A DNA stretch of 64,000 bases from Escherichia phage LHE287, in the sequence record PP761450.1. One strand, written 5' to 3'. The stretch's first letter is position 1. The number at the start of each line of letters is the position of its first letter. The notes below the pieces were generated by a model. That model did not search any database and was not told where the DNA came from. It saw nothing but the letters and a program-made list of their open reading frames with translations. The position numbers were made by a program, and so were the translations under genes. Positions 6,393-29,111 of the stretch are shown one piece after another.

Positions 6393-8594
6393 TTAGATTT
6401 TGATTTCTTTCTCTGTCAGTTCGGCAGTGACCTTGTACTTCACGCCATCCACTTCAACTTCCATGGTGGACTCTTCCAGGTCGAGGTCGGTGAACCAGCC
6501 GTGGCCAGCAACGATACCATACACCACTTTAGACAGTGTCTTGTTCAGGGCACGGACTTCGGTGATGGCCGCCTTGGCAGCAGCGTCGATCCAGTTTTCG
6601 ATCAGCTGTTTCTGTAAGGCTTCAGGCACGGCAGTGATCATAGGAGACTTCACGAATGCTTCGTACTCTTTCAGAGCATTGGCGATGAACAAGTCACCAG
6701 CATTGAGTTTCTTGTTCTCTGCGATCTTCTTCTGTACTGCCGCGATGCTCGGTAGTGAAGACGCCCCGGCGATCTTCACGTTCAGCTCACGGCTCATGTA
6801 GAAGTCGGTAGACTCTTTGGTCTCAGTCTTCGGTGAGAAGCCGTAATCGCGGATGCCGTAGGAGGACAGGAACTCGGCCGCCTCAGCGCCGTACTGTACT
6901 GCCAGGCCTTTGGCGTTACCCTTACCAACCAGGGCGTCTCGATAGAACTTCAGCACCTTCTGCTTGCCTTTCAGGGCTTCCAGACGGACATTATCCGCAA
7001 AGAACTGAGCAGCACTGATGTTCTTGACCATGGCGCGGTTGACCAGCGGTACGCTTTCCAGGTTCAGGACAAACACTTCCGGGCCACCAAACACGTGGAC
7101 GCCCATTTCGATCAGCTTCTGTACAACTTCGATATCAGCCTTGAACGGCAGAGTCTTCACGTTAATGATACCGTCTTTGACGATGGTGTAGTTGCGCCAC
7201 TGGAAAGTATCCAGTTCTTCAGGCAGGCCAAACTTCTTCTGTGCGAATTCAGGCACAGCCACAGTACCGTGTTGAATTGTACGCACACTGATGTTCGGGC
7301 GCTCGGAGTTATAGACCAAATCACTGATTGGCACAACACCCAGATCGTTGGTAGGTTCGAACGTCGGGTTCCACTCTTCGTGTTCTGCCAGCTTGAGAGC
7401 CAGGGCTTTACGCTCTTCTTTGGACTGAGCATTCGCGATCTGTTCTGCCAGCTTGTCTTCGGTGTCGTCGGTTTTCTGCACAGTACCGCGCCCGATACTC
7501 TTATAGGAGAACATCGGATGCTTGGTAGCAACAGGTACACCAGCTTCAGCCAGGTACGTCAGCACATCAACGACGGTGGTCGCATCTTCAGCCGGAACCA
7601 GGTCATAGTCAATACCGTCAACGCCGCGCAGCTGGTCGTCAACAATCGCCTGAACCAGATCGTTCTTGATGTTGGAGTAGTCCTGCTTGGTGAAGCAGTT
7701 GCTGTACTGTTTGATGAAGCGAACGTCGCCCGTCTTCTTCAGCGCAGCCCAAACCAGATCTGCGTCCATAGTGTGTACACCGTAGAACGCCAGCACGTAT
7801 GCCGCCTGGATGTCCGTCAGGCTATCCATCTGGTCGATCATGTTAGGGTTTACAACCCACAGCTTGGTGACGCTCTCAGGGATGCTCACATAGCCGACCG
7901 GGTGAGAGTCATCGTCCTGCACCGCCAGTACTGTTGCCACACCGTTTTCGACGTAGATGGCATGGGTGTAGATGACTGGGACATCAACTTTCACCTTCGG
8001 CACTGATGACTTCAGCACGTTTTCCAGTTCGGTCTGGTATTCGGTCTGACCTTCGGCAAACACATGAGTCGCGCCAGAGCGCTCGGACATCAGAGCCAGC
8101 AGTTCGCGGTTACAGTGCCAGCCGTATTCGATGAAAGTAATGTTATCGAACGCAGAAGGCAAGGTTTCGGCGACGGCCAGGATTTCGTTTGAGCGCCAGC
8201 AGTTGTCATAACCATCGGTCATGAATGCCAGGTTGTTGACGTAACCAGGTTTCTTCAGGTCACGCGCAGTATCCATCGCCAGTTTCAACGGCTCAACGAA
8301 GCCAGTACATCCGGACGGTTGCAGGAAGCGATCGATCAGTTTGTTCAGCTCGCTCAGGTCAGACGCAGCACTAACCTGGCGGCCAGCGAACACAGTACCA
8401 AAGTCGCCTTTGGAGGAGAAATACAGAACGCTCACAGTGTCTTCCGGTTTCACCAGGGAAGGCAGGTTCTCCTTCAGATGCTTACGGACTTCAGGGAGCG
8501 CACGGTACATAGAGCCGGAAATGTCTACAACGATTACATGGTTGGACGGGGTAGCAGTCGCAACCGCATTCTTAAATTCTAATGATTCAATCAT
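6393..8594 (-). CDS. von Willebrand factor A (vWA) domain protein, 733 aa
   Basis: N-terminal MIDAS-like VVVDISGSM...TDG; start taken at MIESLEF (8594) with AAGGCGAAGAG RBS. Confidence 0.7.
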   Translation of the reverse strand: MIESLEFKNAVATATPSNHVIVVDISGSMYRALPEVRKHLKENLPSLVKPEDTVSVLYFSSKGDFGTVFAGRQVSAASDLSELNKLIDRFLQPSGCTGFVEPLKLAMDTARDLKKPGYVNNLAFMTDGYDNCWRSNEILAVAETLPSAFDNITFIEYGWHCNRELLALMSERSGATHVFAEGQTEYQTELENVLKSSVPKVKVDVPVIYTHAIYVENGVATVLAVQDDDSHPVGYVSIPESVTKLWVVNPNMIDQMDSLTDIQAAYVLAFYGVHTMDADLVWAALKKTGDVRFIKQYSNCFTKQDYSNIKNDLVQAIVDDQLRGVDGIDYDLVPAEDATTVVDVLTYLAEAGVPVATKHPMFSYKSIGRGTVQKTDDTEDKLAEQIANAQSKEERKALALKLAEHEEWNPTFEPTNDLGVVPISDLVYNSERPNISVRTIQHGTVAVPEFAQKKFGLPEELDTFQWRNYTIVKDGIINVKTLPFKADIEVVQKLIEMGVHVFGGPEVFVLNLESVPLVNRAMVKNISAAQFFADNVRLEALKGKQKVLKFYRDALVGKGNAKGLAVQYGAEAAEFLSSYGIRDYGFSPKTETKESTDFYMSRELNVKIAGASSLPSIAAVQKKIAENKKLNAGDLFIANALKEYEAFVKSPMITAVPEALQKQLIENWIDAAAKAAITEVRALNKTLSKVVYGIVAGHGWFTDLDLEESTMEVEVDGVKYKVTAELTEKEIKI

Positions 8595-8802
8595 TGTTCT
8601 CTTCGCCTTGTGCGTAAGGGTTAAGTTCAGACTCATCAGCGGCTTCGATGCGCGTCTTTACAGAGTCCAGCATATTGTTGATAAATTCACGAGACTGCTC
8701 CAGCTGAGCCAAGAGCACATCCTTTGGAGCATAGTTCTGAATGCAAGCCGGAATACTTTCAGACGTCGCCTTCAGGTCGGTAAAACATTCTTTCAGTATC
8801 AT
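8587..8802 (-). CDS. hypothetical protein
   Basis: 71-aa ORF ending 8 nt inside the vWA start. Confidence 0.4.
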   Translation of the reverse strand: MILKECFTDLKATSESIPACIQNYAPKDVLLAQLEQSREFINNMLDSVKTRIEAADESELNPYAQGEENND

Positions 8803-8904: not shown

Positions 8905-10569
8905 TCAGATTTGTGAGGCCAGTTCTGTCACCAGAGGAGCGGCACGAACACGCGCATCTTCCAGTGTTTGAGTATTGAAGAACTCGCCATCACGATACAC
9001 CAGCTGGTGCTGGTTGTCGGCGTCTTGCACCTGATCAAAGGTGATACCGTCAACCAACACTAGTTTACCCTGAGAGTCTTTAATGACTTTAAGGAAACCA
9101 CGCGCAGACTTTTTAGTCCCGCCTTTATCGGTCTTCGGCTCTTTGAAGATCTCACGGAATTCACCGTTCACTTTACCAGCCGTGGCTTTCACTGCTGTGC
9201 CAGTACTGTCACGGGTGTTCATCTGGTAGGTGTAGGAACCGATACCGAACACCACGTTGATGGAAGCGAAGTTCCGGTCAGCCAGACGGCTAAAGATCTG
9301 GTCTTCACGCGCCAGGGTGATAGAATCACCGTAGATCAGGCCGATGTGCTCATCCAACAGGAAGTGCCCAGTTTCAGTCTGGGTGCCACCAAAGATCTCC
9401 CACAGGCGCTGGATAGAGCCGACCGCTTCTGAACGGCTGATGATATTACGGTCATCTACCATCAGAGAGTTGATCGTGCCTTCGCCTGTGATCAGGTGAT
9501 AGGTGTTCGTCTCTTCGATGTGGATAACTTCGGTGCTGCTAGACACGCCGCTGATGTTCAGCGTAGCGCGGTCTTTGAACCCCTCGATGCGGTAGCCGCC
9601 AACGATGTGTACAGGGTCGCCCGAGTCGGGGCGAATCACGACTTTACCATTGCGCGCCATGATAATGTCTTTCAGGCGAGGCAGATAGTCGTCGATGACC
9701 TGCCAGTAATCCCACGCATCAGACACGATGCTGACGATGCCATCAGGATACACGTCCTGCACCAGGCGGCGGAAGGTTTCGAATTCGCCATCCTTCGTGC
9801 CCATACACATCACCGCATGTTCCGTTGCGGCAACCGACCCAGCAACGACATAGTCTTCGTCGATGTCTGCGCCATAATACTCTTCTACGAAGTCCAGGGC
9901 AGGGTTGGTATCGGTGCCTTTGAAGAACACCAGATGACCGGAACCGGAAGACGCGGCATCATGCCACCCGCTCATACCACGAAAGGAGAAGTCGTGGCCT
10001 TGGTAGTCGATGAACCAATGGTCCGGTGATACTCCCGTAGCGAGGGCAGCTTTCACCATCAGTGCCTTGTAATGCAAAGCTATGGTGGCGTTCGTCATCG
10101 GCTTCCAGATCTCAGAGCTGAACACAGTCTCCAGATAGTTGGTCAGCCAGTAGAACTCCGGCAGGGTATTGAACATCACATACACCGGAACGCCATACGG
10201 GCACATGGTACCTTCAGGCAGCGCGCGGACTTCGATAGGCAGGTAGCCGAGGTCATGCAGGGCTTCAATATGCTCTGTGCCGACGCGGCCTGGACCCAGG
10301 ACTTTGTTCATGCGACGGGCATACTTCTTCAGCACCTTGGCCTTCGGGCGCTGGAAGAATGCTTCGTCAAACAGTTCGTGGAACCAGGTCATGAAGCCCT
10401 GGATGCCCCAGACCACCACGCCGTTCTTCGGCAGGTGAGAGTTGAACAGTTTGTTAGAGCGCGGAGTTCCGTTGGAGAACACCAGCTCACTGCCTTCAGG
10501 GAACTGATAGATGTGCCCCGATTTGTAGAAGTCGATCGCATGGATTGGGTCTAAGTGGCGCATGCTCAT
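8905..10569 (-). CDS. nicotinamide phosphoribosyltransferase family protein (NadV/Namat-like)
   Basis: 554 aa with NAMPT-like sequence throughout (DFYKSGH..., GSVAATEHAVM, IRPDSGDP); stop/start overlap with upstream gene. Confidence 0.85.
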   Translation of the reverse strand: MSMRHLDPIHAIDFYKSGHIYQFPEGSELVFSNGTPRSNKLFNSHLPKNGVVVWGIQGFMTWFHELFDEAFFQRPKAKVLKKYARRMNKVLGPGRVGTEHIEALHDLGYLPIEVRALPEGTMCPYGVPVYVMFNTLPEFYWLTNYLETVFSSEIWKPMTNATIALHYKALMVKAALATGVSPDHWFIDYQGHDFSFRGMSGWHDAASSGSGHLVFFKGTDTNPALDFVEEYYGADIDEDYVVAGSVAATEHAVMCMGTKDGEFETFRRLVQDVYPDGIVSIVSDAWDYWQVIDDYLPRLKDIIMARNGKVVIRPDSGDPVHIVGGYRIEGFKDRATLNISGVSSSTEVIHIEETNTYHLITGEGTINSLMVDDRNIISRSEAVGSIQRLWEIFGGTQTETGHFLLDEHIGLIYGDSITLAREDQIFSRLADRNFASINVVFGIGSYTYQMNTRDSTGTAVKATAGKVNGEFREIFKEPKTDKGGTKKSARGFLKVIKDSQGKLVLVDGITFDQVQDADNQHQLVYRDGEFFNTQTLEDARVRAAPLVTELASQI

Positions 10570-11420
10570 TTTACACGTCCTGTATTTTCAGTTTTGAAAG
10601 GGAGCCCGTCGGCGGTGATGTTCTCCCACCAGACGGTGTCGGCATACACAGCATCATAGATCCCGTCGAAAACAGAGAGACCTTTGCTGAAGATGCCATG
10701 GGTAACGAAGAGCGTCATGTGCTTAGGCTTGTGCTTCTGAAGCTCTTTGCCTAACTCAACGAACGTGCGCCCACCGTCGCAGATATCATCGACCACCACC
10801 AGATAGCGGTCTTTGATCAGTTCAGGGTTTGTAACACTCACCCCAATGATCTCACCAGTCTTGGTGTCACGGTTCTTGTGACCGTAGACAACAGGAACAC
10901 CGTCCAACGACAGGCTGAGGGCTTCGGTCTTCTTAGCCGCGCCGCCGTCAGGGGCTACCAACACAGCGTTGTTCCCACGGATGAACCAGCCCAGATACTG
11001 ACGCACGATGTAATCTTGCGGGACAACATGGACGTTGTTGATCAGAGAAGACACAACATGGCTGTGAGGATCTTTGATCGCCACGCGGTCAAAGTTCATG
11101 CTATTGATGAACTCAGCTGCCCACTTCACAGACAGAGGCTCACCGAAGTCACAATGGCGGTCCTGGCGAGCATACGGGAAGTAAGGGATATACGCATGGA
11201 ATGTCGTCAGACGGTCCACGTTACCCAGACCACGAACGGCGTTTACCAGAAGCGCCAGCTCAATGAAGTCAGCCGATGATTTGATGTGAGCATCAATCGC
11301 CACGTTCTGAACGTGGCCGATAGGGATACCAGACTTTTGAATCTTGATATGTTCCTCACCACCTGGGAAGGTGAAGTGTTTGTAGAACACATCTTGGTCG
11401 TTCAATTTCAAACGAAACAT
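10566..11420 (-). CDS. ribose-phosphate pyrophosphokinase family protein (Prs/Adps-like)
   Basis: 284 aa with type I PRTase/PRPP motif VVVDDICDGGRTF; 4-nt overlap with the NAMPT-family gene. Confidence 0.75.
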   Translation of the reverse strand: MFRLKLNDQDVFYKHFTFPGGEEHIKIQKSGIPIGHVQNVAIDAHIKSSADFIELALLVNAVRGLGNVDRLTTFHAYIPYFPYARQDRHCDFGEPLSVKWAAEFINSMNFDRVAIKDPHSHVVSSLINNVHVVPQDYIVRQYLGWFIRGNNAVLVAPDGGAAKKTEALSLSLDGVPVVYGHKNRDTKTGEIIGVSVTNPELIKDRYLVVVDDICDGGRTFVELGKELQKHKPKHMTLFVTHGIFSKGLSVFDGIYDAVYADTVWWENITADGLPFKTENTGRVK

Positions 11421-11769: not shown

Positions 11770-12075
11770 TCACTTAAACGAGTCAACGATGGATGTAAGA
11801 ATTTCGGGGGTGGGTTTGGCGTCTTGTGGTTCACGGAAACCCACCTTTGCGATGCGACCCAATACATTGTACACTTCGCGCGGAAGGGTGTCTACGACCG
11901 TGTCCGACATGAACACCACGTCTTCTTGGATGGCGTTGTATTCGGCCAGTTTAGCCAGTTCTGATTCTACCAGGGACTTCAGCTTTTGCAATGGGTCGTT
12001 GCAATAGTTGAGACGGTTACAGTTGGTGAGCGCCTGAGTTAGATTCTCAAACGCTTCTTGTATTTCCTTTGACAT
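11770..12075 (-). CDS. hypothetical protein
   Basis: Trimmed to MSKEIQE start (12075) with GAGG RBS. Confidence 0.4.
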   Translation of the reverse strand: MSKEIQEAFENLTQALTNCNRLNYCNDPLQKLKSLVESELAKLAEYNAIQEDVVFMSDTVVDTLPREVYNVLGRIAKVGFREPQDAKPTPEILTSIVDSFK

Positions 12076-12457
12076 TGATATGTGCCTCGTATTGTTGACA
12101 GACAACAACTACTTTACGGCACATGTCGATATCGAACAAGCCAATATGACACTCACGCTTCTTTATCCCCAGCTTATGCGCCAGCCAACTGTAAGCGTCG
12201 CTCCTGCTCCTCTCTCCGCTTTTCCACAATGGGTCAAACGATCTATGGGCTTCCTGCTTAGCAGCACGGAGAGCGGCATTCGCCATCCTTCCCAAAGGTT
12301 GTCTGCCGTCGCCATGGGCATGGCAACCGACACGGGCATCACATGGAGTGCACACCCAGAACTTCAGATTGCGGAGGTCAGGGCGATGAGGGTAGAGAAC
12401 ATCACCACCGACGAATTCGGCTGGGAGGCCACAGTAATCACATATAACAGGTTTCAT
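12047..12457 (-). CDS. zinc-ribbon (Cys-rich) protein
   Basis: CDYCG...CTPCD...CH cysteine pairs; ATG at 12457. Confidence 0.45.
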   Translation of the reverse strand: MKPVICDYCGLPAEFVGGDVLYPHRPDLRNLKFWVCTPCDARVGCHAHGDGRQPLGRMANAALRAAKQEAHRSFDPLWKSGERSRSDAYSWLAHKLGIKKRECHIGLFDIDMCRKVVVVCQQYEAHINVKGNTRSV

Positions 12458-12475
12458 ATTCTTTGTCCAAAAGAA

Positions 12476-12494
12476 ACCCCGCACATGGCGGGGT
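12476..12494 (-). terminator. hairpin plus U-run
   Basis: ccccgc/gcgggg stem; minus strand followed by TCTTTT. Confidence 0.45.
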
Positions 12495-12517: not shown

Positions 12518-12889
12518 TTATTTCAGGAGTGCTTCCAGTTCTTCAACAGATTTGCTTTCCAGCTCTTGCTGTTTCTTACGCTGGATCAGCTCCAGGATAA
12601 TCTGGTTGTTCGCCTTACGCTCTGCCGCGTCTCTGCTGTCGTCACGTTCTTTCAGCTTAACACCGATGATGTGCTTGACAACGTCGAAGCGCAGCTGCAG
12701 TTCGGAGTCAACGTTGCTTTTGGTGCCAATGAAATCTTCTTCATCGGTTTCTGCTGCTTTCACCTGACGGCTCAGACCTTTCGCCATTTCGTTCAGGGCA
12801 GTCAGGCTCAGGTCCCAGACCTGCTCAACAGACAGCAGACCTTTGTTAGACTCGAAGCGCAGTTTCATACGGGTTGCTTTATCAAACAT
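12518..12889 (-). CDS. hypothetical protein
   Basis: 123-aa ORF, ATG with GAGGA RBS. Confidence 0.5.
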   Translation of the reverse strand: MFDKATRMKLRFESNKGLLSVEQVWDLSLTALNEMAKGLSRQVKAAETDEEDFIGTKSNVDSELQLRFDVVKHIIGVKLKERDDSRDAAERKANNQIILELIQRKKQQELESKSVEELEALLK

Positions 12890-12933: not shown

Positions 12934-14952
12934 TTAGAACACAACTTTCACAGTGCGGTTGAACGAACCGCTCACCTTCACGAACACGTGGTTGCGTTGG
13001 GTGGTAGAGAAGCCCAGACCGGACAGCTGCTCAGTGCTTGGCTGTACTTTAATCTTACCACCTAACATTTCAAAAACCTTGCGGTGTTTATCAAGTTCCG
13101 GCTTCAGATATTCGTTATAGAAACCACGGGTGCCGACAGGGTTAGCACAACCTTCCAGGATGAAGAACACGTGCTTGTTGCCAGTCTGCTCGCCGTCCCA
13201 ATGGTTTGGTGAGTTCAGAACCAGCTGTACCTTCTGGAAGACGGAGGTCTTGATGCCCCAGATTTCCTGAGAGCGAGCGTCGTCTTTCAGGGTAGAACTG
13301 ATGTCAACCACCTGACCAGCGCGAACCTGAACCACAACAGCCAACGTGCGATCTTTGTTACCCAGGCCAGGGTGTGAGAAGCGCTTAGTCTGACCTTTGT
13401 ATTCAACTTCGATTTCGAAACCAACGTCACAGGTTTCACGCTTGTTGAAGTTGGTGACATAGAACTCATAATTCCCGTCACGCAACTTGCGTTCATCGCT
13501 AAAGAAGATGTTCTCCACCGGACGGCGGTTTGGATCAATGCCGTCCATACCGTTCATGTCGATGTCCAGAGTTGCGCCAGTTGTCGAACGACGGTTGCGA
13601 AAATATACGTGGTTGTGAAGAGGATCGTTCATGCTCAGATCCAGGTCGTCGTTGTTATGCCAAGCCAGTGACACGCGGAGGAAGCTGTCGACATTGCCGC
13701 CTGCGGTCTTCACGCGCTCTTTGATGGAGTCGGCCACTTCGCCATTGTACGACCAGCTGAAGCCGTTGTTCCACTTGAACAGGTTAGGAGCGCCTGCGGT
13801 AGCCGGAGCGATCAGGGACATCAGGTTGCCAATGTGAGAGTTTTCGACCAGCACTTCCAGGGAATGCGCCTTTGGCAACACGTTGGTCAGGAAGTCGTCG
13901 ATCGTGATCTCTTCAACCTTGTCCAGGGACTTGGTCGGAGTCTTCACTTCAGACGCCAGCTGAGCAAACGGGTCCATCTTCTTCTGAGCTGCCAGATCGG
14001 CGAACAGAACGTTGTTGATGGTCAGATCGTCATACACGGCATAACGGCGACCCAGTGAATCGGTCAGACCCAGCGCTTCGACTTCTTTCTGCGCGTTTTC
14101 AATCATCGACTTCGTGACCAGCGCGGTTGGGCGCTTGTAGTTCGTCGGAGCGACTTTGGCTTCAAAGGACTTCACGGCGGTTTCCAGATCCCGGCCTTCA
14201 TTGAGGTCTACCAGCAGAGAGCCAATCACGGTATTACGAATGCCGTGAGGGGTATGACCGTTTGCACGGTAGCCAGTGCGCCAAGCCCACAGAGCGCGTT
14301 TCTCTTCTGCAGTTTGTTCGTACAGGGTCTTGTTCACCACGAACGCCTGCACTGCCGCTTTGTGCTCTTCACCGCGATACAGAGAATTCTGGTCAATCAA
14401 TTCCAGAACGATTTCAGCCGATTCCAGAGACAGTTCACGCAGGCCGCGCTCAAACACTTCAATCGCCTGGCGGATTTCACCCTTCTTAGAAGCGATGGTA
14501 TCTGCCCGCAGAACATAGCTGCCCAGCAGGTCGGTGTGGAAGTGGTTGTAGGTACGGACAATACCATCTTTCATTTCGTGATTCGACTCAACACCAACTT
14601 TCTTGGTGTCGTTGAAGTACACGTCGACGATTGCGTGCTGCTTAACATATGCTGACAGCGCCGCAGCGACAACGTCGTATTCGTTACCCAGCTGAATGTT
14701 ATCCCAGATAGAGATCACGTTCAGATCGGAGTCGATGGTGACTACACCGCCGATGTTACGGATGAATTGTTTGCAGCAGGTGCAGTCGTGCTCGGTACGC
14801 TCACGATAAAGCGGGTTAGTGCCAGCAGGGAAAGAAGACAGATACAGATCCCACAGAGCATCTTTATCGATGTTGGTCATGAACAGACCAGTTGCTGACA
14901 TGGCCAGCACGTTATTGTTGACAGCTACTGCGAAGGGCTTAAAATCTGACAT
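12934..14952 (-). CDS. hypothetical large early protein (672 aa)
   Basis: Long ORF with AGGAAG RBS; no motif I can assign. Confidence 0.6.
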   Translation of the reverse strand: MSDFKPFAVAVNNNVLAMSATGLFMTNIDKDALWDLYLSSFPAGTNPLYRERTEHDCTCCKQFIRNIGGVVTIDSDLNVISIWDNIQLGNEYDVVAAALSAYVKQHAIVDVYFNDTKKVGVESNHEMKDGIVRTYNHFHTDLLGSYVLRADTIASKKGEIRQAIEVFERGLRELSLESAEIVLELIDQNSLYRGEEHKAAVQAFVVNKTLYEQTAEEKRALWAWRTGYRANGHTPHGIRNTVIGSLLVDLNEGRDLETAVKSFEAKVAPTNYKRPTALVTKSMIENAQKEVEALGLTDSLGRRYAVYDDLTINNVLFADLAAQKKMDPFAQLASEVKTPTKSLDKVEEITIDDFLTNVLPKAHSLEVLVENSHIGNLMSLIAPATAGAPNLFKWNNGFSWSYNGEVADSIKERVKTAGGNVDSFLRVSLAWHNNDDLDLSMNDPLHNHVYFRNRRSTTGATLDIDMNGMDGIDPNRRPVENIFFSDERKLRDGNYEFYVTNFNKRETCDVGFEIEVEYKGQTKRFSHPGLGNKDRTLAVVVQVRAGQVVDISSTLKDDARSQEIWGIKTSVFQKVQLVLNSPNHWDGEQTGNKHVFFILEGCANPVGTRGFYNEYLKPELDKHRKVFEMLGGKIKVQPSTEQLSGLGFSTTQRNHVFVKVSGSFNRTVKVVF

Positions 14953-15066
14953 GATGTAATCTTCCTGTTTCAGTTCAAATGTGCGCCCCGTTTGCTAGGG
15001 CGCTTCGTTTAAGTGAGGTCAATATACGCTGGATTGAGTTATTGAAGAACGAAGTAAAGGAAATCT

Positions 15067-16290
15067 TTATTCAGGTTTCTTCAAACGGTCCAGCAAATTG
15101 ACGGAACCACGTTTGAGAACGACTTCATCACAGCGCTTTTTGTATTCCCCACCGCCGTCATAGCTGACCTTGCCCCGAGGTTTTTCACCGCGCCCAACCG
15201 CCTCAACACAGCGAGTGTACTTGCTCAGTTCACAGAACATGTTCTCCAGCTGCATAACGTTCATGCACTGATCTACAGGCTCTTCAGCCGACCAGAATTG
15301 CTCACGAACATACCCATATTGGGAATACACCGCGTCCTGATTGTCCCGCAACCAGAAGATGCATTCTTCATGCGTCATGCCATCTTTGTCCTGGAACATC
15401 AGATCAATCCCTGCGCGACAGCCTGGTCCAGCAACCGTGAAGTGGTTCTCACTGAAAGGATATCCAGGAATGTACGTGAAATCAACCCAGATCTGGTAGG
15501 CCAGGAATGGACCAAGCCCTTCGATGTCGTCATACATGCGCTGGTATACTTCCAGAGGAGTACCAAGGCGCAGCAAGTCATGGAAATAGTTTGGATACTT
15601 GTTGACGAATGCCTTCAGGGAGCGGATGACACGCATTGGCATGTACGGTTCCCATCCCTCGATGGTATATTCACCAGGATTCTCTTCGACCAGCTTCTTG
15701 GCGACCTTGTAGTCCATCTCTTCCACAATACCCTGGCCAACACGATACACTTTCACCATCATCCCACCGAAGCGCTGCTCCTTGTGGTTGACAACCATCT
15801 CAGGGAAAGCCAGGCATTGTTTCAGGCCGCCCGTGTTGAAGGCATTGGTGAATACCTTACCACCGTCGGCCTCGAACTTCTGAAGTCGTTCGCGGGTTGC
15901 ATCGAGGTTGATCTCGGCGAATTCTTTGATCGTCATCGCGCCGCCGATAGCCTGGATTGGATCCCAGAGGTTGAACATGCGGAACAACACGCAGTTGAAC
16001 ATCTTGTCGGCCATACCCAGAGCATCATTCTTGGCGATGTTGTTGATCAGGTTGAGAGACTGCCTGTCGTGCTCTCTCCGGACGTTACAGAATTTAACCT
16101 GGCGTAATATGGGATTATCAGTCCAAGGAGCAGGAAGGCGCTGGACGTCCTTCTTGACGTGGATCTGATAACGATCGCGCATCCATTCGTAAGACAGGCA
16201 GGTATGGGTCGGACTGAGAACCGGTTTGGCCGACTTTATCTTTTCTTCACGGACACCGCAGTACGGGACGTCCAGGGCTTTATCTTTCAT
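15067..16290 (-). CDS. hypothetical protein (407 aa)
   Basis: Long ORF with AGAGGA RBS. Confidence 0.6.
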   Translation of the reverse strand: MKDKALDVPYCGVREEKIKSAKPVLSPTHTCLSYEWMRDRYQIHVKKDVQRLPAPWTDNPILRQVKFCNVRREHDRQSLNLINNIAKNDALGMADKMFNCVLFRMFNLWDPIQAIGGAMTIKEFAEINLDATRERLQKFEADGGKVFTNAFNTGGLKQCLAFPEMVVNHKEQRFGGMMVKVYRVGQGIVEEMDYKVAKKLVEENPGEYTIEGWEPYMPMRVIRSLKAFVNKYPNYFHDLLRLGTPLEVYQRMYDDIEGLGPFLAYQIWVDFTYIPGYPFSENHFTVAGPGCRAGIDLMFQDKDGMTHEECIFWLRDNQDAVYSQYGYVREQFWSAEEPVDQCMNVMQLENMFCELSKYTRCVEAVGRGEKPRGKVSYDGGGEYKKRCDEVVLKRGSVNLLDRLKKPE

Positions 16291-16310
16291 GGTATCCTCT
16301 TAGAATACGA

Positions 16311-16337
16311 AAACAGAGGCCATTATAGCCTCTGTTG
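16311..16337 (-). terminator. rho-independent terminator
   Basis: acagaggc/gcctctgt 8-bp stem followed on the minus strand by TTTT. Confidence 0.55.
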
Positions 16338-16358
16338 TTTAGTGAATAACTGTATATC

Positions 16359-17231
16359 TTAATCGATACGGGTCAGTTGGGTGATAGATGATTGCACTGG
16401 GCTGGCCACATAGATACGGACGTTGGCTTTCCATTCACCCCAGATCAACGGCAGAGTTGGGAAGTTGTCTTCATTGAAAACAAACACGGGAATGTAGCTC
16501 TCGACTGTTTCGCCAGAGAACGCCTGAAAGCCCATCTTGGTGTATCCCATGATCTCGTCAATAAAATCGAACGGAGCGAAGGCAACACCAGCGTGTTCGT
16601 TGCATCCGAGCTGGCCTGGAGTGGCCGTACCTGTCAGAATGATTTCGGTGATCTGGCGCTTAGGCTCGGCGGTCAACATATCAGAGAAGTCAGGCTCTTT
16701 GAAGGTTGCCATGTTCTTCAGGAACTTGCCAGCCGGGTACTCTTTGCCGTCGACAGTGATGGTGTCTACCACTTTGATGCACGCCTGAGGGAATTCCCCT
16801 TCGATGCGCAGACTTTCGCGTGGGAAGCCTTTGTTGTAGTAGTAATCCAGTGCTGGCACAACTTCACCTTCATTACGGATGAACTTGCTCATGTTAGAGG
16901 CATACACGCGCTGTAGACATTCGTCACCGTCGAAACCAGCAATATGAGCCACACCGTCGTTGACTGTTGTGATGTCGCCCTGGGCATCCATGATCTGGCG
17001 CATAATGTCTTTGATGTCGACAACAACGGGTTCTTTCAGGACTCGCGGAGATGCGGTGAACTCAATTTTCACCTCGTGGTCGAAATACGCCGCTTCCAGC
17101 AGTTCACGGGTTTCTTCCAGCACCAGTTTCGCCTGATTGCGGATCTTACCAAAGTCGGGCGATGTGACGTCGCCCTTTGCATTACCGAAAGCCAGATTCA
17201 GATTCACGTTCTTGGAAAATGTAGTTGTCAT
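16359..17231 (-). CDS. hypothetical protein (290 aa); N-terminal region weakly MazG-like
   Basis: KLVLEETRELLEA resembles the MazG/HisE EExxE helix; GGAG RBS. Confidence 0.45.
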   Translation of the reverse strand: MTTTFSKNVNLNLAFGNAKGDVTSPDFGKIRNQAKLVLEETRELLEAAYFDHEVKIEFTASPRVLKEPVVVDIKDIMRQIMDAQGDITTVNDGVAHIAGFDGDECLQRVYASNMSKFIRNEGEVVPALDYYYNKGFPRESLRIEGEFPQACIKVVDTITVDGKEYPAGKFLKNMATFKEPDFSDMLTAEPKRQITEIILTGTATPGQLGCNEHAGVAFAPFDFIDEIMGYTKMGFQAFSGETVESYIPVFVFNEDNFPTLPLIWGEWKANVRIYVASPVQSSITQLTRID

Positions 17232-17247
17232 GATTTAGCGACTCCAG

Positions 17248-17712
17248 TTATTCGCTTTTTGCCTTCGTAGGCCGGATGATGTATTTTGGAACCAGTTTCC
17301 ATTCAGGAACCTGATCGTGTTTAACCACTTTAATGCGAGACATATCGGCTGCTTCAGTGACCTGCTCAGGATGAATGACCTTCACCATGTTCCACTGCTC
17401 CAGCAGCTTGATGATTCGGTTCATCCTCAGGACATCTTCGCGGTTAAATCCGTTGTAATGCCCGTCCAGCATAAATAGATGCTTAAAGTGGACGATATAA
17501 TACTTGCCACACTTATGAAGAATATGGCAAGTCTGATACAGAGTATTCGGCTCTTGGCGCGTGTTTACCCCAATTCGACTCAGTGTTTCCTTGATCCCCA
17601 GGAATATACCTGGCCGATCTTGGTTCAATTGAACTTCAACCATACAATCAACGATGCTGGCCTCATCGTTGACTGCTGAAATATTCAATATGTCTAGCGT
17701 ATTACGCGCCAT
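17248..17712 (-). CDS. regA: RegA-like translational repressor of early genes
   Basis: LYQTCHILHKCGKYYIVHFK and EWKLVPKY closely match T4 RegA as I recall it; sits downstream of genes 45-44-62 as in T4. Confidence 0.8.
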   Translation of the reverse strand: MARNTLDILNISAVNDEASIVDCMVEVQLNQDRPGIFLGIKETLSRIGVNTRQEPNTLYQTCHILHKCGKYYIVHFKHLFMLDGHYNGFNREDVLRMNRIIKLLEQWNMVKVIHPEQVTEAADMSRIKVVKHDQVPEWKLVPKYIIRPTKAKSE

Positions 17713-17741: not shown

Positions 17742-18164
17742 CTATTTAGCCTTGCGCGGTTTCGCTTTGGCGTTCAGCTCAGTGCGTCTCATCTTCTCGC
17801 GTATCTCGGCCAGGACTTCCTTCGGCAAGAAACGGACGTACTCCGATGCCTTCTCCATGCTGATGTAGAAGTACTCGGAGAGTAACTTCACGTCAGGATC
17901 AATCGGACCTTTCTTAGACCATTTGTCGTAGCGTTTCCGAGCCGGAATGGTGTAAAAGGCATATGACCATTGCATCCATGGAGTGATAGCATGTAGCTTA
18001 TTCATCTGTTGTGCAGCCACTAGTGTGTCTTTGCTCTGAGCTAAACCACGCCGCGTCATAAACGGGTCGAATCCTTTCAACACTTCTGGGTCATCAGACC
18101 GCAAAAGGTTTTCTTTGCTGCTGTTCAGAGCAGCCAGGTAATCGAACAATCCAAGGGCGGCCAT
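17742..18164 (-). CDS. gp62: clamp loader small subunit (gp62-like)
   Basis: T4-like position after gp44; ARKRYDKWSKK resembles T4 gp62 RGKRYGKWAKL; start trimmed to MAALGLF. Confidence 0.55.
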   Translation of the reverse strand: MAALGLFDYLAALNSSKENLLRSDDPEVLKGFDPFMTRRGLAQSKDTLVAAQQMNKLHAITPWMQWSYAFYTIPARKRYDKWSKKGPIDPDVKLLSEYFYISMEKASEYVRFLPKEVLAEIREKMRRTELNAKAKPRKAK

Positions 18165-18168
18165 AATA

Positions 18169-19158
18169 TCACTTCCACTTGATGTTGAGCATGACATTGG
18201 TCAGGAAAAACACAGCATGCAGCCAGACATCGCCGACTTGACGGTGTTCAATCTGAGACTGACCACACACGCATACCAGATCAGGGATAGACTCATTCTG
18301 AACCAACATTTGCTTCTCTTTATCCTGTGGTACACAGAACTGGAAGAAGCGGGAATAGAAGTCTTCAGTGATATAGTTCTGGTTGTCGGTCACCCACTGC
18401 TTCATCCCAGCCCAGTCATTATCCTTCAACATATTCACCAACATGCCCATATCGGCCGATTTTAACACAGCCAGTGCACGTTCGTCGATCTTGCCGTAAG
18501 TGGTGACGTTATCCTGTAGAACACCCATGATGCGGCGGTTATCAGGGAAATGGCGCTTGACAATAGCAGCCAACACAGGAGGGTCATACTCAACACCTTC
18601 GCAGCGAAGGATTTCAGCACAGCGGCGCATGAACTGAAGTTTTACCTCATCAGCCTCAGCCTCATTCCAGATAAAGTCGATTTCACGGCAACGAGAGCGC
18701 AGAGGTTCGTTCACACGTTGCTTGGCGTTGGTGGTCAAGATGAATGAACAGTTCTTGGAGACCTTCTCCACAATACCCTTCAGCGACTCCTGTGCCGCCA
18801 TAGACAGACGCTCTACTTCGTCGAGGATAACGACTTTGCGGCCACCGAATACGCTCACACCAGTAGAGTACTGAATCACGCGGTCACGGATAACGTCAAT
18901 GCTGTTGTCCAGGGATGCGTTGATCATCAGTGGTTGCTTACAACCGATTTCATTACACACGGCCAGGGCAGAGGTAGTCTTGCCAGTACCAGGCTGAGGA
19001 GAGTAGAACAGCATAGACGGGATGTTGCCGTTGCCGCTGGTGATGTAGCCATGGATTTTAGCGCGGACGTCTTGAGGGATGATAATCTCGTCCAGGTTGT
19101 CAGGGCGATACTTGTTTTCCCATGCGTACTGGTCGGAAACGATAGTGATATTAGACAT
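18169..19158 (-). CDS. gp44: clamp loader large subunit, AAA+ ATPase (gp44-like)
   Basis: ENKYRP...SPQPGTGKTT...ILDEVERL with overall similarity to T4 gp44; start at MSNITIV. Confidence 0.85.
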   Translation of the reverse strand: MSNITIVSDQYAWENKYRPDNLDEIIIPQDVRAKIHGYITSGNGNIPSMLFYSPQPGTGKTTSALAVCNEIGCKQPLMINASLDNSIDVIRDRVIQYSTGVSVFGGRKVVILDEVERLSMAAQESLKGIVEKVSKNCSFILTTNAKQRVNEPLRSRCREIDFIWNEAEADEVKLQFMRRCAEILRCEGVEYDPPVLAAIVKRHFPDNRRIMGVLQDNVTTYGKIDERALAVLKSADMGMLVNMLKDNDWAGMKQWVTDNQNYITEDFYSRFFQFCVPQDKEKQMLVQNESIPDLVCVCGQSQIEHRQVGDVWLHAVFFLTNVMLNIKWK

Positions 19159-19190
19159 TTCAGCCTCGTGTAGAAGAATCATTTCAAATA

Positions 19191-19208
19191 GGCGGGGAAC
19201 GCCCCGCC
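19191..19208 (-). terminator. GC hairpin after the sliding clamp gene
   Basis: ggcgggg-aacg-ccccgcc. Confidence 0.4.
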
Positions 19209-19238
19209 CACACATTATAGCATCAGGCTGGAGATTGA

Positions 19239-19907
19239 TTACTCAATCTGTGCGCCGACGAAGTAATTGATCGTCGCGTCGGATGATTGGAAGTTCACCA
19301 TCTGTAGATCAGCACAGGCACGCAGAGTGTAGTTGCCTTCGATCATTTTCAGGTTGGCAACATCCAGTGGCATTACGAAGTCCGGCAGCGCGGTTTCGCC
19401 CAGCTCAACAGTGTAGTTGTTGGAGTTGTCTAGGGTAGTGGTGGTTGCAACCAGGCGTGTTTTGCCACCCTGAGCAACCAGACGCACAGTCTTGTGTCCG
19501 AGGGTAGAGCAGGCGCGGGTCAGTTCTTTCATCTTCTCTGGAGTGATGATCGCTTCAAAGTCAACAGACGGCAGTTCAATAGTATCAGCCGGAACAACAG
19601 TGAGTTCTTTAGCAGAACGCCAGAATTGCAGCTGAGAGCTTTCGCCTTTCAACAGGATGTAGTCCTGATGAAATTCGGCTTTGGCACCTTTGAAGGAAGG
19701 TAGGCGCTGGATGGCCAGAAGTTTGGTCAGGTCCAGAATCGGGAACTCAAACGGGAAGTCTTCTTCGATCTGCGCCACGGCGATCACAGTAGAAGAATCA
19801 TTAATACTGCGCAGCATCTTGCCTGGTGTCAGAACGATAGATGGGTTGATGGTCTCAAAGTTGGCCAGCAACTGAAGTGTACGTTCGGAGAGAGTGATCT
19901 CTTGCAT
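19239..19907 (-). CDS. gp45: sliding clamp (gp45-like)
   Basis: 222 aa; LLANFETINPSI resembles T4 gp45 N-terminus LLKNFATINSGI; synteny with 44/62. Confidence 0.8.
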   Translation of the reverse strand: MQEITLSERTLQLLANFETINPSIVLTPGKMLRSINDSSTVIAVAQIEEDFPFEFPILDLTKLLAIQRLPSFKGAKAEFHQDYILLKGESSQLQFWRSAKELTVVPADTIELPSVDFEAIITPEKMKELTRACSTLGHKTVRLVAQGGKTRLVATTTTLDNSNNYTVELGETALPDFVMPLDVANLKMIEGNYTLRACADLQMVNFQSSDATINYFVGAQIE

Positions 19908-20040
19908 TTGTATGTATCCTCAAAATATAGTGGGGGTTCAAGTCATGTTTGACGCAATCTAGTATCGCTGTGTTTTGCTTATAGAACAAGTGGCAAATTG
20001 CGCTACGCGTTATTAATAAATGCCTTCGGCATTTATGGAC

Positions 20041-20089
20041 TTTATTAAAGATAATAACCTTTATTAAAGATAATAACCTTTATTAATCC
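20041..20089. repeat. 19-bp tandem direct repeat, about 2.5 copies
   Basis: TTTATTAAAGATAATAACC x2 plus partial third copy, in the divergent AT-rich intergenic region. Confidence 0.7.
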
Positions 20090-27534: not shown

Positions 27535-29007
27535 TTAGTTCAAGACATATTTGATCAGTCCACAATTCCAAATCCTGACCAGCCCGGCTTCGGTTGCTAA
27601 CTGGCTTTCTGTTTTGCCTTCTACGTCATACCCCATGCGAGCAAATGAACCTTTTCTGAAACCGAATTTGTGCTCACGCATAAATGTGCCAGGCTTGTGG
27701 TATTTGTAGTCTGGCTTCTGTACTTCCTCTTCTACGAATCCGTGGGATAGGTAAATGTTGGACAACCTGCTTACAACACACCTATCCCCAAAGGAATAGA
27801 TTTTGGTGTCGGTAAATTTTCTTCTGAAGTGTGAAAGAAGTTTACTGAATGCCCCGTGGCAATCATTAGAGGCAAATCTGACTAATTCCAGGCCATCTTT
27901 CCTTTTAGTGAATAGCATCACGGCTTGTATGACCCCACTCTTGTCAATTAACGACAAATGGTGGGTGGAAGAAACGGAACCTTGTATGTGGTGGTTGTCT
28001 AAAAACTCCCTCAAGCCGCTTATATTCCCCCAAACGACTTTGTGTTGGCGAGCATATGACGCGGGTGTTTTAATGCCAAGTTTAGCTTTCAGAAGAGATT
28101 TGACCACTTCCTGTTTCTCAACCCATTCATCTTCCCAGATGTGGATCAACTGGATACCCTGAGTTTCACATATTTCAGTCTTTTCCAGGTGATAATGTTT
28201 CTCTTTAAAAACTTCTGAATGCCAGTACAGGCCATTAAATTCGATCGCCAATTTGTGTTCAGGGCAATAGATATCCAGTTGTTTACCGGATAATATACTG
28301 TAATCAGAAACAGTGTTTACAACTCCCATTGAGGTGAGAAACTCGGATATTTCCTTTTCATAAGAAGATTTCTTGTTCCTGATAGAACCATTGCTGAACA
28401 ACGCACGTTTTAGTATGTTCGAGTTTTTCATAGGGTTGTCAACACCATAACGTTCTTGTAACGTTGCCAACGCCTTCTCCCTCACACCAGGTAATTGTAG
28501 TGTGGAGCAGCTTCCGTATTTGGATATATTCGAATTCTCTATGGCTTTCCGACCAATCCCACCTTTACACATAGAAACCTGATAACATTCTTCAGAACAA
28601 TATGTTCTGTAATCTTTATTATTGATATAAAAGTTGGTTTCCTTGGAACACACCGGGCATATTTTCACGGTTCTATTGTACAGCCAAGCTGTGACTTTAC
28701 AAGCCAAATCTTGTAGGGTGTTGTGGGTATTGGCGAACACTAAAAGGTCTACATTGATGTGCTTCATAAGCAGTTCAGATTTGCATTTTTGGATATCCAA
28801 TTTGTTGTTCTTGGTAAACATATATTTGTAGAAAAATTGGCGATATGATTCCTCGTCAGACAATTCATTCACTGCTTCAAGGAAACCTTCCGGGAGGTTC
28901 TTTAGGGTGTTCGATGCGAAGGTCTTGCAAGCATCTGAACAAAATTTCTTATCTTTCCTGGATGCTTTGAACTGTTCATGGCAGACACTACAGATTACCT
29001 GATACAT
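27535..29007 (-). CDS. free-standing nuclease: zinc-finger N-terminus plus Vsr-like (PD-(D/E)xK) domain; putative homing endonuclease
   Basis: PEHKLAIEFNGLYWHSE and GIQLIHIWEDEW parallel E. coli Vsr PKHRLAIFVDGCFWHGH and GWRVLIVWECAL; two CxxC...C clusters; GGAGGAG RBS at start 29007. Confidence 0.6.
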   Translation of the reverse strand: MYQVICSVCHEQFKASRKDKKFCSDACKTFASNTLKNLPEGFLEAVNELSDEESYRQFFYKYMFTKNNKLDIQKCKSELLMKHINVDLLVFANTHNTLQDLACKVTAWLYNRTVKICPVCSKETNFYINNKDYRTYCSEECYQVSMCKGGIGRKAIENSNISKYGSCSTLQLPGVREKALATLQERYGVDNPMKNSNILKRALFSNGSIRNKKSSYEKEISEFLTSMGVVNTVSDYSILSGKQLDIYCPEHKLAIEFNGLYWHSEVFKEKHYHLEKTEICETQGIQLIHIWEDEWVEKQEVVKSLLKAKLGIKTPASYARQHKVVWGNISGLREFLDNHHIQGSVSSTHHLSLIDKSGVIQAVMLFTKRKDGLELVRFASNDCHGAFSKLLSHFRRKFTDTKIYSFGDRCVVSRLSNIYLSHGFVEEEVQKPDYKYHKPGTFMREHKFGFRKGSFARMGYDVEGKTESQLATEAGLVRIWNCGLIKYVLN

Positions 29008-29064
29008 AATTATTCTCCTCCATATGGTATCTAGTATAACCTGTTCGATAATATGAACAAATAA

Positions 29065-29086: not shown

Positions 29087-29111
29087 GTCAGGGTTAAGGA
29101 CAACTATTCGA

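What the first reader, a model, noticed from the sequence alone, without database searches (positions are those of the whole stretch)
12934..17231. T4-like 45-44-62-regA replisome block followed by unassigned large proteins where DNA polymerase would be expected
The order gp45, gp44, gp62, regA reproduces T4. In T4 the next gene is DNA polymerase 43, but here the following three ORFs (290, 407 and 672 aa) show no polymerase motifs that I can recognise. Possibilities include nucleotide-metabolism or DNA-modification enzymes, which this phage group is known for; this is speculative.
Basis: inference. Interest (0 to 1): 0.4.

Follow-up and report, generated by a model that had tools for sequence, protein, structure and literature searches.

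The report
Known phage block plus one mystery gene pair
The three unassigned genes after the T4-like clamp/regA block of this ViI-like (Ackermannviridae) phage are a MazG-type nucleotide pyrophosphatase, the still-unexplained "clade 1" member of the known thymidine-hypermodification gene set, and a widespread phage protein of unknown function that always travels with a small partner gene; the DNA polymerase simply sits elsewhere in this phage family.

Summary
On the minus strand the order is gp45, gp44, gp62, regA, then ORFs of 290, 407 and 672 aa, none of them a polymerase. The window is an Agtrevirus-like Ackermannviridae phage (96% DNA identity to E. coli phage vB_EcoM-ZQ1), and the block is syntenic with Salmonella phage ViI. 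In ViI and in the Agtrevirus ChubbyThor the B-family polymerase lies elsewhere, beside other hypermodification genes.

- **290 aa:** an all-alpha MazG/DR2231-like NTP pyrophosphohydrolase domain with its acidic residues intact, plus a family-specific tail.
- **407 aa:** 87% identical to ViI gp160, the "aG/PT-PPlase1" (Pfam HMUDK_hel) of the published thymidine-hypermodification gene set. Its role is still undetermined.
- **672 aa:** Pfam DUF8224, with a TerD-like beta-sandwich insert and no other recognisable fold. It is found in very diverse phages. A ~130-aa gene follows it in 48 of 48 lineages sampled, and no other neighbour is conserved, so it is not tied to base modification.

The block itself is already in the literature. 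What remains open is what gp160-type proteins and the DUF8224 cassette do.

The parts
19239..19907 (-). gp45-like sliding clamp (222 aa)
   Evidence: phrog_223 1.1e-64; Pfam gp45-slide_C 0.002, below Pfam's cut-off
18169..19215 (-). gp44-like clamp-loader large subunit (348 aa)
   Evidence: Pfam AAA, Gp44_lid; phrog_168 2e-105
17742..18197 (-). gp62-like clamp-loader small subunit (151 aa)
   Evidence: Pfam Phage_clamp_A 1.7e-10; phrog_225 6e-42
17248..17712 (-). RegA translational repressor (154 aa)
   Evidence: Pfam Translat_reg 2.1e-34
16662..17231 (-). 290-aa ORF, residues 1-190: all-alpha MazG/DR2231-like NTP pyrophosphohydrolase domain
   Evidence: phrog_2144 5e-133, phrog_671 3e-20. Distant homologs cover only residues ~1-190. 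Invariant N12 E40 E43 D82 D86 K169 K172. Family profile hits DR2231 MazG-like NTP-PPase at E 9e-6. 13/40 relatives match Pfam PRA-PH, 4 MazG-like, 2 MazG.
16359..16661 (-). 290-aa ORF, residues 191-290 plus stop: C-terminal extension restricted to Ackermannviridae
   Evidence: Full-length matches only in Ackermannviridae. N4-like and other phages match residues 1-186 only.
16312..16336 (-). terminator-like hairpin (11-bp stem) between the MazG-like gene and the 407-aa gene
   Evidence: sequence. The number of such sites in the region is not above shuffled expectation, so this is suggestive only.
15067..16290 (-). 407-aa ORF: ortholog of ViI gp160 = aG/PT-PPlase clade 1 = Pfam HMUDK_hel; no P-loop kinase domain
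   Evidence: Pfam PF18723 2.6e-81 over residues 32-364. 87% identity to Vi01_130c/orf00160. Lee 2018 Table 3 lists gp160 as aG/PT-PPlase1. Remote homologs are annotated aGPT-Pplase1 or lie next to a nucleotide kinase.
15220..15246 (-). invariant motif E349-N350-x-x-C353-E354-x-x-K357 of the 407-aa family
   Evidence: Invariant in 28 sequences down to 43% identity. hhalign's only hit to ViI gp247 aligns it with ETSGAC-W (not significant).
15418..15429 (-). invariant G288-P-G-C291 motif of the 407-aa family
12934..14952 (-). 672-aa ORF: DUF8224 (PF26675), function unknown
   Evidence: phrog_1735 E=0. PF26675 on all homologs, named DUF8224. More than 5,400 homolog clusters. 553 phage records. AF2 model mean pLDDT 83.
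13168..13659 (-). DUF8224 residues ~432-595: TerD-like beta-sandwich inserted into the core protein
14518..14952 (-). DUF8224 residues 1-145: alpha/beta domain with invariant C57-x-x-C60 and H137; no structural relative found
12518..12889 (-). 123-aa partner gene of DUF8224 (phrog_2018), helical, conserved N-terminal K-L-R-F...K-G-x-L-x-V-E-D-L-W-D-L motif
   Evidence: Immediately downstream on the same strand in 48/48 lineages. 34% identity to the partner on a Bradyrhizobium-labelled contig. Consensus. Deleted together with DUF8224 in Dickeya phage Ds23CZ.
12475..12495 (-). terminator-like GC-rich hairpin with T-run just after the partner gene
   Evidence: phiCbK has an annotated terminator at the same place after its cassette.

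Best explanation
This is the standard, already sequenced gene block of ViI-like (Ackermannviridae) phages. A T4-type clamp / clamp-loader / regA operon is followed by accessory genes, not by the polymerase, which this family keeps in another part of the genome.

(1) The 290-aa protein is a MazG/DR2231-type all-alpha NTP pyrophosphohydrolase. It most likely hydrolyses an unwanted dNTP (dUTP and/or dTTP) to the monophosphate. That would favour 5-hmdUTP incorporation and feed dUMP to the phage hydroxymethylase. The fold and catalytic residues are shown; the substrate is inferred.

(2) The 407-aa protein is the ortholog of ViI gp160, the clade-1 aG/PT-PPlase (Pfam HMUDK_hel). It is a stand-alone copy of the domain that is fused to the 5-hmdU DNA kinase in SP10 gp186, and it belongs to the gene set unique to thymidine-hypermodifying phages. 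It most likely acts on 5-hmdU or 5-phosphomethyl-dU in replicated phage DNA, using its invariant Cys/Glu motif. It is not the serine transferase that makes 5-NeOmdU, and its product is unknown. Membership and conservation are shown; activity is inferred.

(3) The 672-aa protein (DUF8224) and the 123-aa gene after it form an autonomous, dispensable two-gene cassette found across unrelated phages. The core has a CxxC...His site, which may bind a metal, and carries a TerD-like, probably Ca2+-binding, insert. I infer an accessory host-directed or counter-defence function that is unrelated to DNA modification.
For: Family and synteny:
- 96% DNA identity to vB_EcoM-ZQ1, with the block shared by Ackermannviridae.
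- The ViI map shows the same order, orf00165-orf00158.
- The polymerase is Vi01_190 at 145 kb in ViI and a 999-aa DNA_pol_B at 18.4-21.4 kb in ChubbyThor, next to HMUD2, ADDT and a PLP enzyme.

290 aa:
- PHROG MazG-like.
- Invariant E40/E43/D82/D86.
- Profile hit to DR2231 at E 9e-6.
- PRA-PH, MazG-like and MazG hits in distant relatives.
- A dUTPase/dCTPase-fold dTTPase/dUTPase that spares 5hmdUTP was shown experimentally in another thymine-hypermodifying phage (PMC13458397).

407 aa:
- PF18723 at 2.6e-81 and 87% identity to gp160.
- gp160 is listed as aG/PT-PPlase1 and as unique to hypermodifying phages.
- A close relative, SW16-7, has all five pathway genes reported.
- Invariant ENxxCE..K and GPGC motifs.
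- The SP10 kinase works without this domain, so the domain is not merely part of the kinase.

672 aa:
- DUF8224.
- Partner present in 48/48 lineages, next best neighbour 7/48, and the modification genes adjacent only in the 2 Ackermannviridae groups.
- TerD-like insert.
- Co-deletion with the partner in Dickeya Ds23CZ and a frameshift in ViI.
Against: - No activity was measured here for any of the three proteins.
- ViI-type genomes carry two further all-alpha NTP pyrophosphatases. One (dUTPase_2) sits beside the dUMP hydroxymethylase and HMUDK1, so it may be the dTTPase/dUTPase instead.
- The closest non-family homologs of the 290-aa domain are in N4-like enterobacterial phages, which are not known to hypermodify thymidine.
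- gp160 was not needed with purified enzymes: kinase, gp247 and gp226 gave 5-NeOmdU (PMC8989533).
- gp160 has no detectable sequence similarity to gp247, and the motif alignment is not significant.
- For DUF8224 the functional statement is weak inference only. No fold match exists outside the TerD insert, and PADLOC gives nothing.
Confidence: 0.75

Rival explanations
1. The 407-aa gp160-type protein is a non-catalytic helper. It would be a DNA-binding or base-flipping helix-hairpin-helix module that recruits or targets the small P-loop 5-hmdU DNA kinases (HMUDK1/HMUD2) to particular sequence contexts, as suggested by its fusion to the kinase in SP10 and by Pfam's name 'kinase helical domain'.
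For: Pfam names the family HMUDK_hel. SP10 gp186 is a kinase plus clade-1 domain fusion (Lee 2018 Table 3). A remote homolog in Stenotrophomonas phage Sonora lies under features annotated as pyrophosphorylase and nucleotide kinase. gp160 is dispensable for 5-NeOmdU synthesis in vitro. Hypermodification is described as sequence-specific in vivo.
Against: Two invariant cysteines and an invariant E-N-x-x-C-E..K motif persist down to 43% identity, which is unusual for a purely DNA-binding module. The SP10 kinase domain alone is active. The ViI kinases gp67 and gp243 phosphorylate DNA without gp160.
Confidence: 0.3
2. All three ORFs together form one DNA base-modification module, with the 672-aa protein as a further modification enzyme.
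For: Adjacency and shared strand in Ackermannviridae. DUF8224 has conserved Cys/His/Arg/Tyr residues that could be catalytic.
Against: DUF8224 occurs in 553 phage records of unrelated families: phiCbK, Vequintavirinae, the roseophage DSS3_VP1 (Naomviridae), Bacillus, Clostridioides, Microcystis and Cellulophaga phages. In 46 of 48 lineages it has no HMUDK_hel or MazG-like neighbour. A terminator-like hairpin and 114-nt and 68-nt spacers separate the genes. Limestonevirus phages deleted DUF8224 and its partner but kept the MazG-like and gp160-like genes.
Confidence: 0.05
3. The 672-aa protein is a DNA-directed RNA polymerase, as annotated in the GenBank/RefSeq records of Shigella phage ChubbyThor and Klebsiella phage KNP2.
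For: Only the product names in two records.
Confidence: 0.02

Closest known systems
Salmonella phage ViI (Vi01) genes orf00165-orf00155 (Vi01_135c-127c), and the same block in Agtrevirus phages (Ag3, SKML-39, ChubbyThor, vB_EcoM-ZQ1)
   Same: Same gene order and strand: gp45, gp44, gp62, regA, MazG-like, gp160, DUF8224, partner, DUF3268. Protein identities to ViI are 60% (MazG-like), 87% (gp160), about 82% (DUF8224) and 81% (partner). DNA identity to ZQ1 is 96%.
   Different: DUF8224 is one intact ORF here but two frames in the ViI record. This phage carries the PRPP-synthetase-like and NAMPT-like pair, which ViI and ZQ1 lack.
ViI gp247 / M6 gp51 / PaMx11 gp46 clade-2 aGPT-Pplase (Pfam ADDT, amino acid:DNA transferase)
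   Same: Predicted helix-hairpin-helix glycosylase-like fold (literature). Restricted to 5-HMUDK phages. The 407-aa family has an invariant Glu...Cys motif resembling the essential Glu/Cys of clade 2.
   Different: No significant sequence similarity (BLASTP E about 1; hhalign probability 0.09). Clade 1 is not required for 5-NeOmdU or N-alpha-GlyT formation in vitro. Its substrate and product are unknown.
Deinococcus radiodurans DR2231 (MazG-like NTP pyrophosphohydrolase) and SH-Ab 15599 gp18 dTTPase/dUTPase
   Same: All-alpha NTP-PPase with conserved acidic residues. The profile hits DR2231 at E 9e-6. gp18 sets a precedent for dTTP/dUTP clearance in a thymine-hypermodifying phage.
   Different: The match covers only about 55-70 residues. 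The 290-aa protein has an extra ~100-aa C-terminal region. No direct comparison with gp18 was possible, and the substrate is untested.
TerD (Klebsiella tellurite-resistance protein, 2kxt) and SCO6318 (2qz7)
   Different: Only an inserted domain of a 672-aa protein is similar, at 9-17% identity. There is no Pfam TerD hit and no ter operon context.

Membership tests
T4-type 45-44-62-regA replisome accessory operon | Sliding clamp, two clamp-loader subunits and RegA in that order on one strand | tested here: met
   Pfam and PHROG assignments for all four ORFs, contiguous on the minus strand.
T4-type 45-44-62-regA replisome accessory operon | Gene 43 DNA polymerase immediately downstream of regA (the T4 arrangement) | tested here: not met
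   The next three ORFs have no polymerase domains. In ViI and ChubbyThor the DNA_pol_B gene lies elsewhere.
aG/PT-PPlase clade 1 / Pfam HMUDK_hel (PF18723) | Significant match to the family model over most of its length | tested here: met
   E 2.6e-81, 273.5 bits against a cut-off of 25, profile positions 6-278 of 281.
aG/PT-PPlase clade 1 / Pfam HMUDK_hel (PF18723) | Orthology to the reference member ViI gp160 | tested here: met
   87% identity over all 407 residues and the same genomic position.
aG/PT-PPlase clade 1 / Pfam HMUDK_hel (PF18723) | Co-occurrence in the genome with 5-hmdU DNA kinase, clade-2 transferase (ADDT) and dUMP hydroxymethylase | tested here: inconclusive
   Those genes lie outside this 64-kb window. 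They are present in ViI and in the Agtrevirus ChubbyThor (HMUD2, ADDT, PALP), and are reported for SW16-7, which is 93% identical over this block.
aG/PT-PPlase clade 1 / Pfam HMUDK_hel (PF18723) | Helix-hairpin-helix DNA-glycosylase-like fold | not tested
The fold is taken from Lee 2018.
5-hmdU DNA kinase (P-loop; Pfam HMUDK_HMUD1 / HMUD2) | P-loop kinase domain | tested here: not met
   The 407-aa ORF matches only the helical-domain model. ViI gp67 and ChubbyThor gp26 match HMUDK_HMUD1 and HMUD2 in the same kind of scan.
Amino acid:DNA transferase (clade-2 aGPT-Pplase, Pfam ADDT) | Sequence membership in PF18724 and similarity to ViI gp247 | tested here: not met
   No ADDT hit. BLASTP to gp247 gives E 0.99. 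hhalign probability is 0.09.
All-alpha NTP pyrophosphohydrolase superfamily (MazG / PRA-PH / dimeric dUTPase) | Homology to characterised members | tested here: met
   No direct Pfam hit. However, the family profile hits DR2231 at E 9e-6, and 13/40 homologs match PRA-PH, 4 MazG-like and 2 MazG. PHROG MazG-like at 5e-133.
All-alpha NTP pyrophosphohydrolase superfamily (MazG / PRA-PH / dimeric dUTPase) | Conserved acidic metal-binding residues (ExxE ... DxxxD) | tested here: met
   E40, E43, D82 and D86 are invariant in 40 sequences down to 20% identity.
All-alpha NTP pyrophosphohydrolase superfamily (MazG / PRA-PH / dimeric dUTPase) | NTP to NMP + PPi activity and substrate specificity | not testable with these tools
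   Requires an enzyme assay.
DUF8224 (PF26675) | Sequence membership | tested here: met
   All homologs carry PF26675 in the precomputed Pfam column, named DUF8224. phrog_1735 E=0 over residues 1-672. The model is absent from the local Pfam copy, so there is no direct hmmscan hit.
TerD family | TerD beta-sandwich fold | tested here: met
TerD family | Sequence membership (Pfam TerD) and ter-operon context | tested here: not met
   No Pfam hit even at E<=10 for the isolated segment. No ter genes nearby.

The most novel reading that the evidence does not exclude
The gp160-type clade-1 aG/PT-PPlase encoded at 15067-16290 could be the missing enzyme that turns the remaining (phosphorylated) 5-hydroxymethyl-dU in newly replicated DNA into ordinary thymidine. 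It would use the same Cys-C6 attack and exocyclic-methylene chemistry as the clade-2 transferases, but end in reduction. That would explain why ViI-type genomes are a sequence-specific mosaic of roughly 40% 5-NeOmdU and canonical T. Lee et al. 2018 state that how 5-hmdU is converted to thymidine is unknown. The protein is unique to hypermodifying phages, is dispensable for the hypermodification itself, has an invariant ENxxCE motif, and a clade-2 enzyme plus borohydride yields thymidine.
Probability: 0.12. Interest if true: 0.7.

Novelty: already known. Interest (0 to 1): 0.27.

Why it matters
As a genome feature this is ordinary. It is the conserved ViI-like layout, and the thymidine-hypermodification pathway of this family is published. 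Two loose ends are still worth recording.

First, the clade-1 aG/PT-PPlase (gp160 type) is the only member of the hypermodification gene set without an assigned reaction, and the enzyme that converts 5-hmdU to thymidine in these phages has not been identified. The invariant Cys/Glu motif found here gives a direct mutagenesis target.

Second, DUF8224 with its obligate small partner is a very widespread two-gene phage cassette, strongly conserved (about 45-50% identity across unrelated phage families). It has a TerD-like insert and an otherwise unrecognised fold. It is mis-annotated as an RNA polymerase in some records.

Tried and rejected
- **Split or cryptic polymerase:** considered that 407 + 672 aa might be a split gene 43, as in some Aeromonas T4-like phages. 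Rejected: no DNA_pol_B hits, and the real polymerase was located in relatives.
- **407 aa as the kinase:** the Pfam name suggests it, but there is no P-loop domain. The ViI kinases are gp67 and gp243.
- **123-aa gene as an ArfB-like peptidyl-tRNA hydrolase:** NCBIfam E 0.042, but there is no GGQ motif and the score is far below cut-off.
- **DUF8224 linked to the vWA protein or a CobS/CobT-like pair:** the 712-aa neighbour on a Bradyrhizobium-labelled contig is unrelated to the window's vWA protein, and vWA adjacency is seen in only 2/48 lineages.
- **DUF8224 linked to NAD+ salvage:** NAMPT or NMNAT genes lie nearby in DSS3_VP1, KNP2 and B1VFA, but in only 3/48 lineages in the census. NARP3 is a different gene pair.
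- **Searches that gave nothing for DUF8224:** Foldseek against PDB, Pfam on five separate segments at E<=10, PADLOC, PDB sequence search, and a literature search for 'DUF8224'.
- **Direct Pfam or PDB hit for the 290-aa ORF:** none. Only the profile route worked.
- **Promoter and terminator scans:** counts are not above shuffled expectation.

Full report
**1. Observation.**
All genes in the region lie on the minus strand:
- gp45, 19239-19907
- gp44, 18169-19215
- gp62, 17742-18197
- regA, 17248-17712
- three further ORFs of 290 aa (16359-17231), 407 aa (15067-16290) and 672 aa (12934-14952)

Pfam and PHROGs confirm the first four. For gp45 the Pfam hit is below cut-off and the assignment rests mainly on phrog_223. 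None of the three following ORFs matches a polymerase family in Pfam, NCBIfam, PHROGs or PDB sequences. The other large ORFs scanned in the window are not polymerases either. Those that get a named family are terminase, sheath, portal, capsid, tail spikes, a UvsW-like helicase, a vWA protein and NAD-salvage enzymes.

**2. What the window is.**
The 4.3-kb block is 96% identical to E. coli phage vB_EcoM-ZQ1 and 92-96% identical to other Agtrevirus-like phages. It is recognisable in 280 phage records, nearly all from hosts of Ackermannviridae. The ViI (Vi01) map has the same order:
- gp45 to regA (orf00165-162)
- MazG-like (orf00161)
- orf00160
- orf00158, split into two CDS
- orf00155
- orf00153

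In ViI the polymerase is Vi01_190 at 145 kb. It lies next to gp243 (kinase 2) and gp247. In the Agtrevirus ChubbyThor, a 999-aa DNA_pol_B protein at 18.4-21.4 kb is flanked by a PLP enzyme, HMUD2 and ADDT. The clamp/regA block of ChubbyThor is at 122-125 kb. A polymerase is therefore not expected after regA in this family.

**3. The 290-aa ORF.**
PHROGs place it in a family labelled MazG-like pyrophosphatase (5e-133). Pfam gives nothing directly. An exhaustive phmmer search found 235 representatives, and the distant ones cover only residues ~1-190. In a 40-sequence alignment, N12, E40, E43, D82, D86, K169 and K172 are invariant. The profile hits the D. radiodurans MazG-like NTP pyrophosphohydrolase DR2231 at E 9e-6. 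Of the 40 members, 13 match Pfam PRA-PH, 4 MazG-like and 2 MazG.

The C-terminal ~100 residues are confined to Ackermannviridae. A dUTPase/dCTPase-fold enzyme of another thymine-hypermodifying phage is a dTTPase/dUTPase that spares 5hmdUTP (PMC13458397). That is the most likely role by analogy.

Two points weaken this:
- ViI has two more all-alpha NTP-PPases, and one sits beside the hydroxymethylase and HMUDK1.
- The nearest outside homologs are in N4-like phages.

The substrate is therefore inferred, not shown.

**4. The 407-aa ORF.**
It matches Pfam PF18723 (HMUDK_hel) at 2.6e-81 over residues 32-364 and has no P-loop domain. It is 87% identical to ViI orf00160. Lee et al. [quoted passage not shown]

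Pfam now uses the names HMUD2 and ADDT for kinase 2 and clade 2. I infer that HMUDK_hel is the current name for clade 1. Remote tblastn hits support this: one is annotated 'aGPT-Pplase1 domain-containing protein', and another lies under features annotated as pyrophosphorylase and nucleotide kinase.

The literature shows the following:
- A kinase plus gp247 (serine:DNA transferase) and gp226 (decarboxylase) suffice for 5-NeOmdU (PMC8989533).
- The SP10 kinase domain works without the clade-1 domain.
- gp160 has no assigned function.

In 28 homologs down to 43% identity, the motifs G288-P-G-C291 and E349-N-x-x-C353-E354-x-x-K357 are invariant. The only hhalign hit to ViI gp247 places ENM-FCE over ETSGACW. 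That hit is not significant (probability 0.09). Clade-2 enzymes depend on a Glu and a Cys that lie close together in the sequence. This suggests a catalytic protein but does not prove one.

**5. The 672-aa ORF.**
It has no Pfam hit in the local copy, and no NCBIfam or PDB sequence hit. All homologs carry PF26675, which is DUF8224. There are more than 5,400 homolog clusters, many about 50% identical over the full length. It is found in 553 phage records. These include:
- phiCbK
- Vequintavirinae
- the roseophage DSS3_VP1 (Naomviridae)
- Bacillus, Clostridioides, Microcystis and Cellulophaga phages

*Neighbourhood census.* I took 84 loci, including the window, and collapsed them to 48 lineages at less than 70% DUF8224 identity.
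- A ~130-aa gene lies immediately downstream on the same strand in 48 of 48 lineages.
- The next most conserved neighbour is present in 7 of 48.
- The gp160-like and MazG-like genes are adjacent only in the two Ackermannviridae groups.
- NAMPT is adjacent in 3 of 48.

The partner here is 12518-12889. It is 34% identical to the partner on a Bradyrhizobium-labelled contig. It carries a conserved N-terminal KLRF...KGxLxVEDLWDL motif.

*Structure.* The AF2 model has mean pLDDT 83.
- Homologs of ~540 aa lack exactly residues ~432-595, so that domain is an insertion.
- C57, C60, H137, R193, Y272, R274, R302, E614, R624 and E628 are invariant even at 22-25% identity.

*Dispensability and annotation.* Dickeya phage Ds23CZ has one deletion that removes most of DUF8224 together with the partner. 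The ViI record has the gene in two frames. The cassette is therefore dispensable. The 'DNA-directed RNA polymerase' label in two public records has no support.

**6. Operon structure.**
Terminator-like hairpins lie between the MazG-like and 407-aa genes (16336-16312) and just after the partner gene (12495-12475). phiCbK has an annotated terminator at the equivalent place. The scan counts are not above chance, so this is suggestive only.

**7. Verdict.**
- The block is a known, conserved feature of Ackermannviridae.
One ORF is a nucleotide-pool enzyme, and one is a member of the published thymidine-hypermodification gene set. The third is wrongly included.
- Nothing here is a new kind of system.
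- Two open points remain: the reaction catalysed by clade-1 aG/PT-PPlases, and the function of the DUF8224 cassette.
- On the first point, Lee 2018 state that how 5-hmdU is converted to thymidine is unknown. The gp160-type protein is a candidate for that step, at low probability.

Noticed in passing
window 8905-11420 (minus strand): A PRPP-synthetase-like ORF (284 aa, 10566-11420) overlaps by 4 nt with a NAMPT-like ORF (554 aa, 8905-10569). This two-gene layout matches the phage NAD+ reconstitution pathway NARP1 (Adps + Namat; PMC12774641, PMC13586617). The pair is present in ChubbyThor, absent from the closest relative ZQ1 and from ViI, and reduced to a NAMPT fragment in Dickeya phage Ds23CZ.
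   Followed up: partly
window 12047-12484 (minus strand): A 145-aa DUF3268 zinc-finger protein (Pfam 2.6e-37) follows the DUF8224 cassette. It is conserved next to the cassette in only 3 of 48 lineages, is truncated in ZQ1, and forms one deletion junction in Dickeya Ds23CZ.
   Followed up: partly
window 20040-20086: A perfect tandem repeat, period 19, 2.5 copies (TAATAAAGGTTATTATCTT on the gene strand), lies in the 360-nt intergenic region upstream of gp45, next to a hairpin. It may be a regulatory or origin-related element.
   Followed up: no
window 6393-8636 (minus strand): A 747-aa protein with an N-terminal vWA domain (phrog_2426, function unknown) is conserved across Ackermannviridae. An acyl-carrier-like gene is annotated beside it in ChubbyThor and ViI.
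   Followed up: no
relatives of window 12934-17231 (Salmonella phages Marshall and Maynard, E. coli phages AV101 and RPN242): In these phages the three-ORF block is matched in two pieces. Marshall and Maynard have an HNH homing endonuclease annotated inside it; the window lacks this insertion.
   Followed up: no
L093 (Stenotrophomonas phage QDWS359), L094 (Rhizobium phage B1VFA), L010 (roseophage DSS3_VP1): DUF8224 or its short TerD-less form often lies among RNA-repair genes (RtcB, Rnl2, PNK/3'-phosphatase) and NAD-salvage genes (NAMPT, NadM-Nudix). This hints at a counter-defence neighbourhood, but the pattern is not statistically supported in the 48-lineage census.
   Followed up: partly
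window 27535-29103 (minus strand): A 522-aa ORF has weak REase_MTES_1575 and DUF7487 hits, both below Pfam cut-offs. It is annotated as an HNH or homing endonuclease in relatives and is probably a mobile endonuclease upstream of the capsid genes.
   Followed up: no
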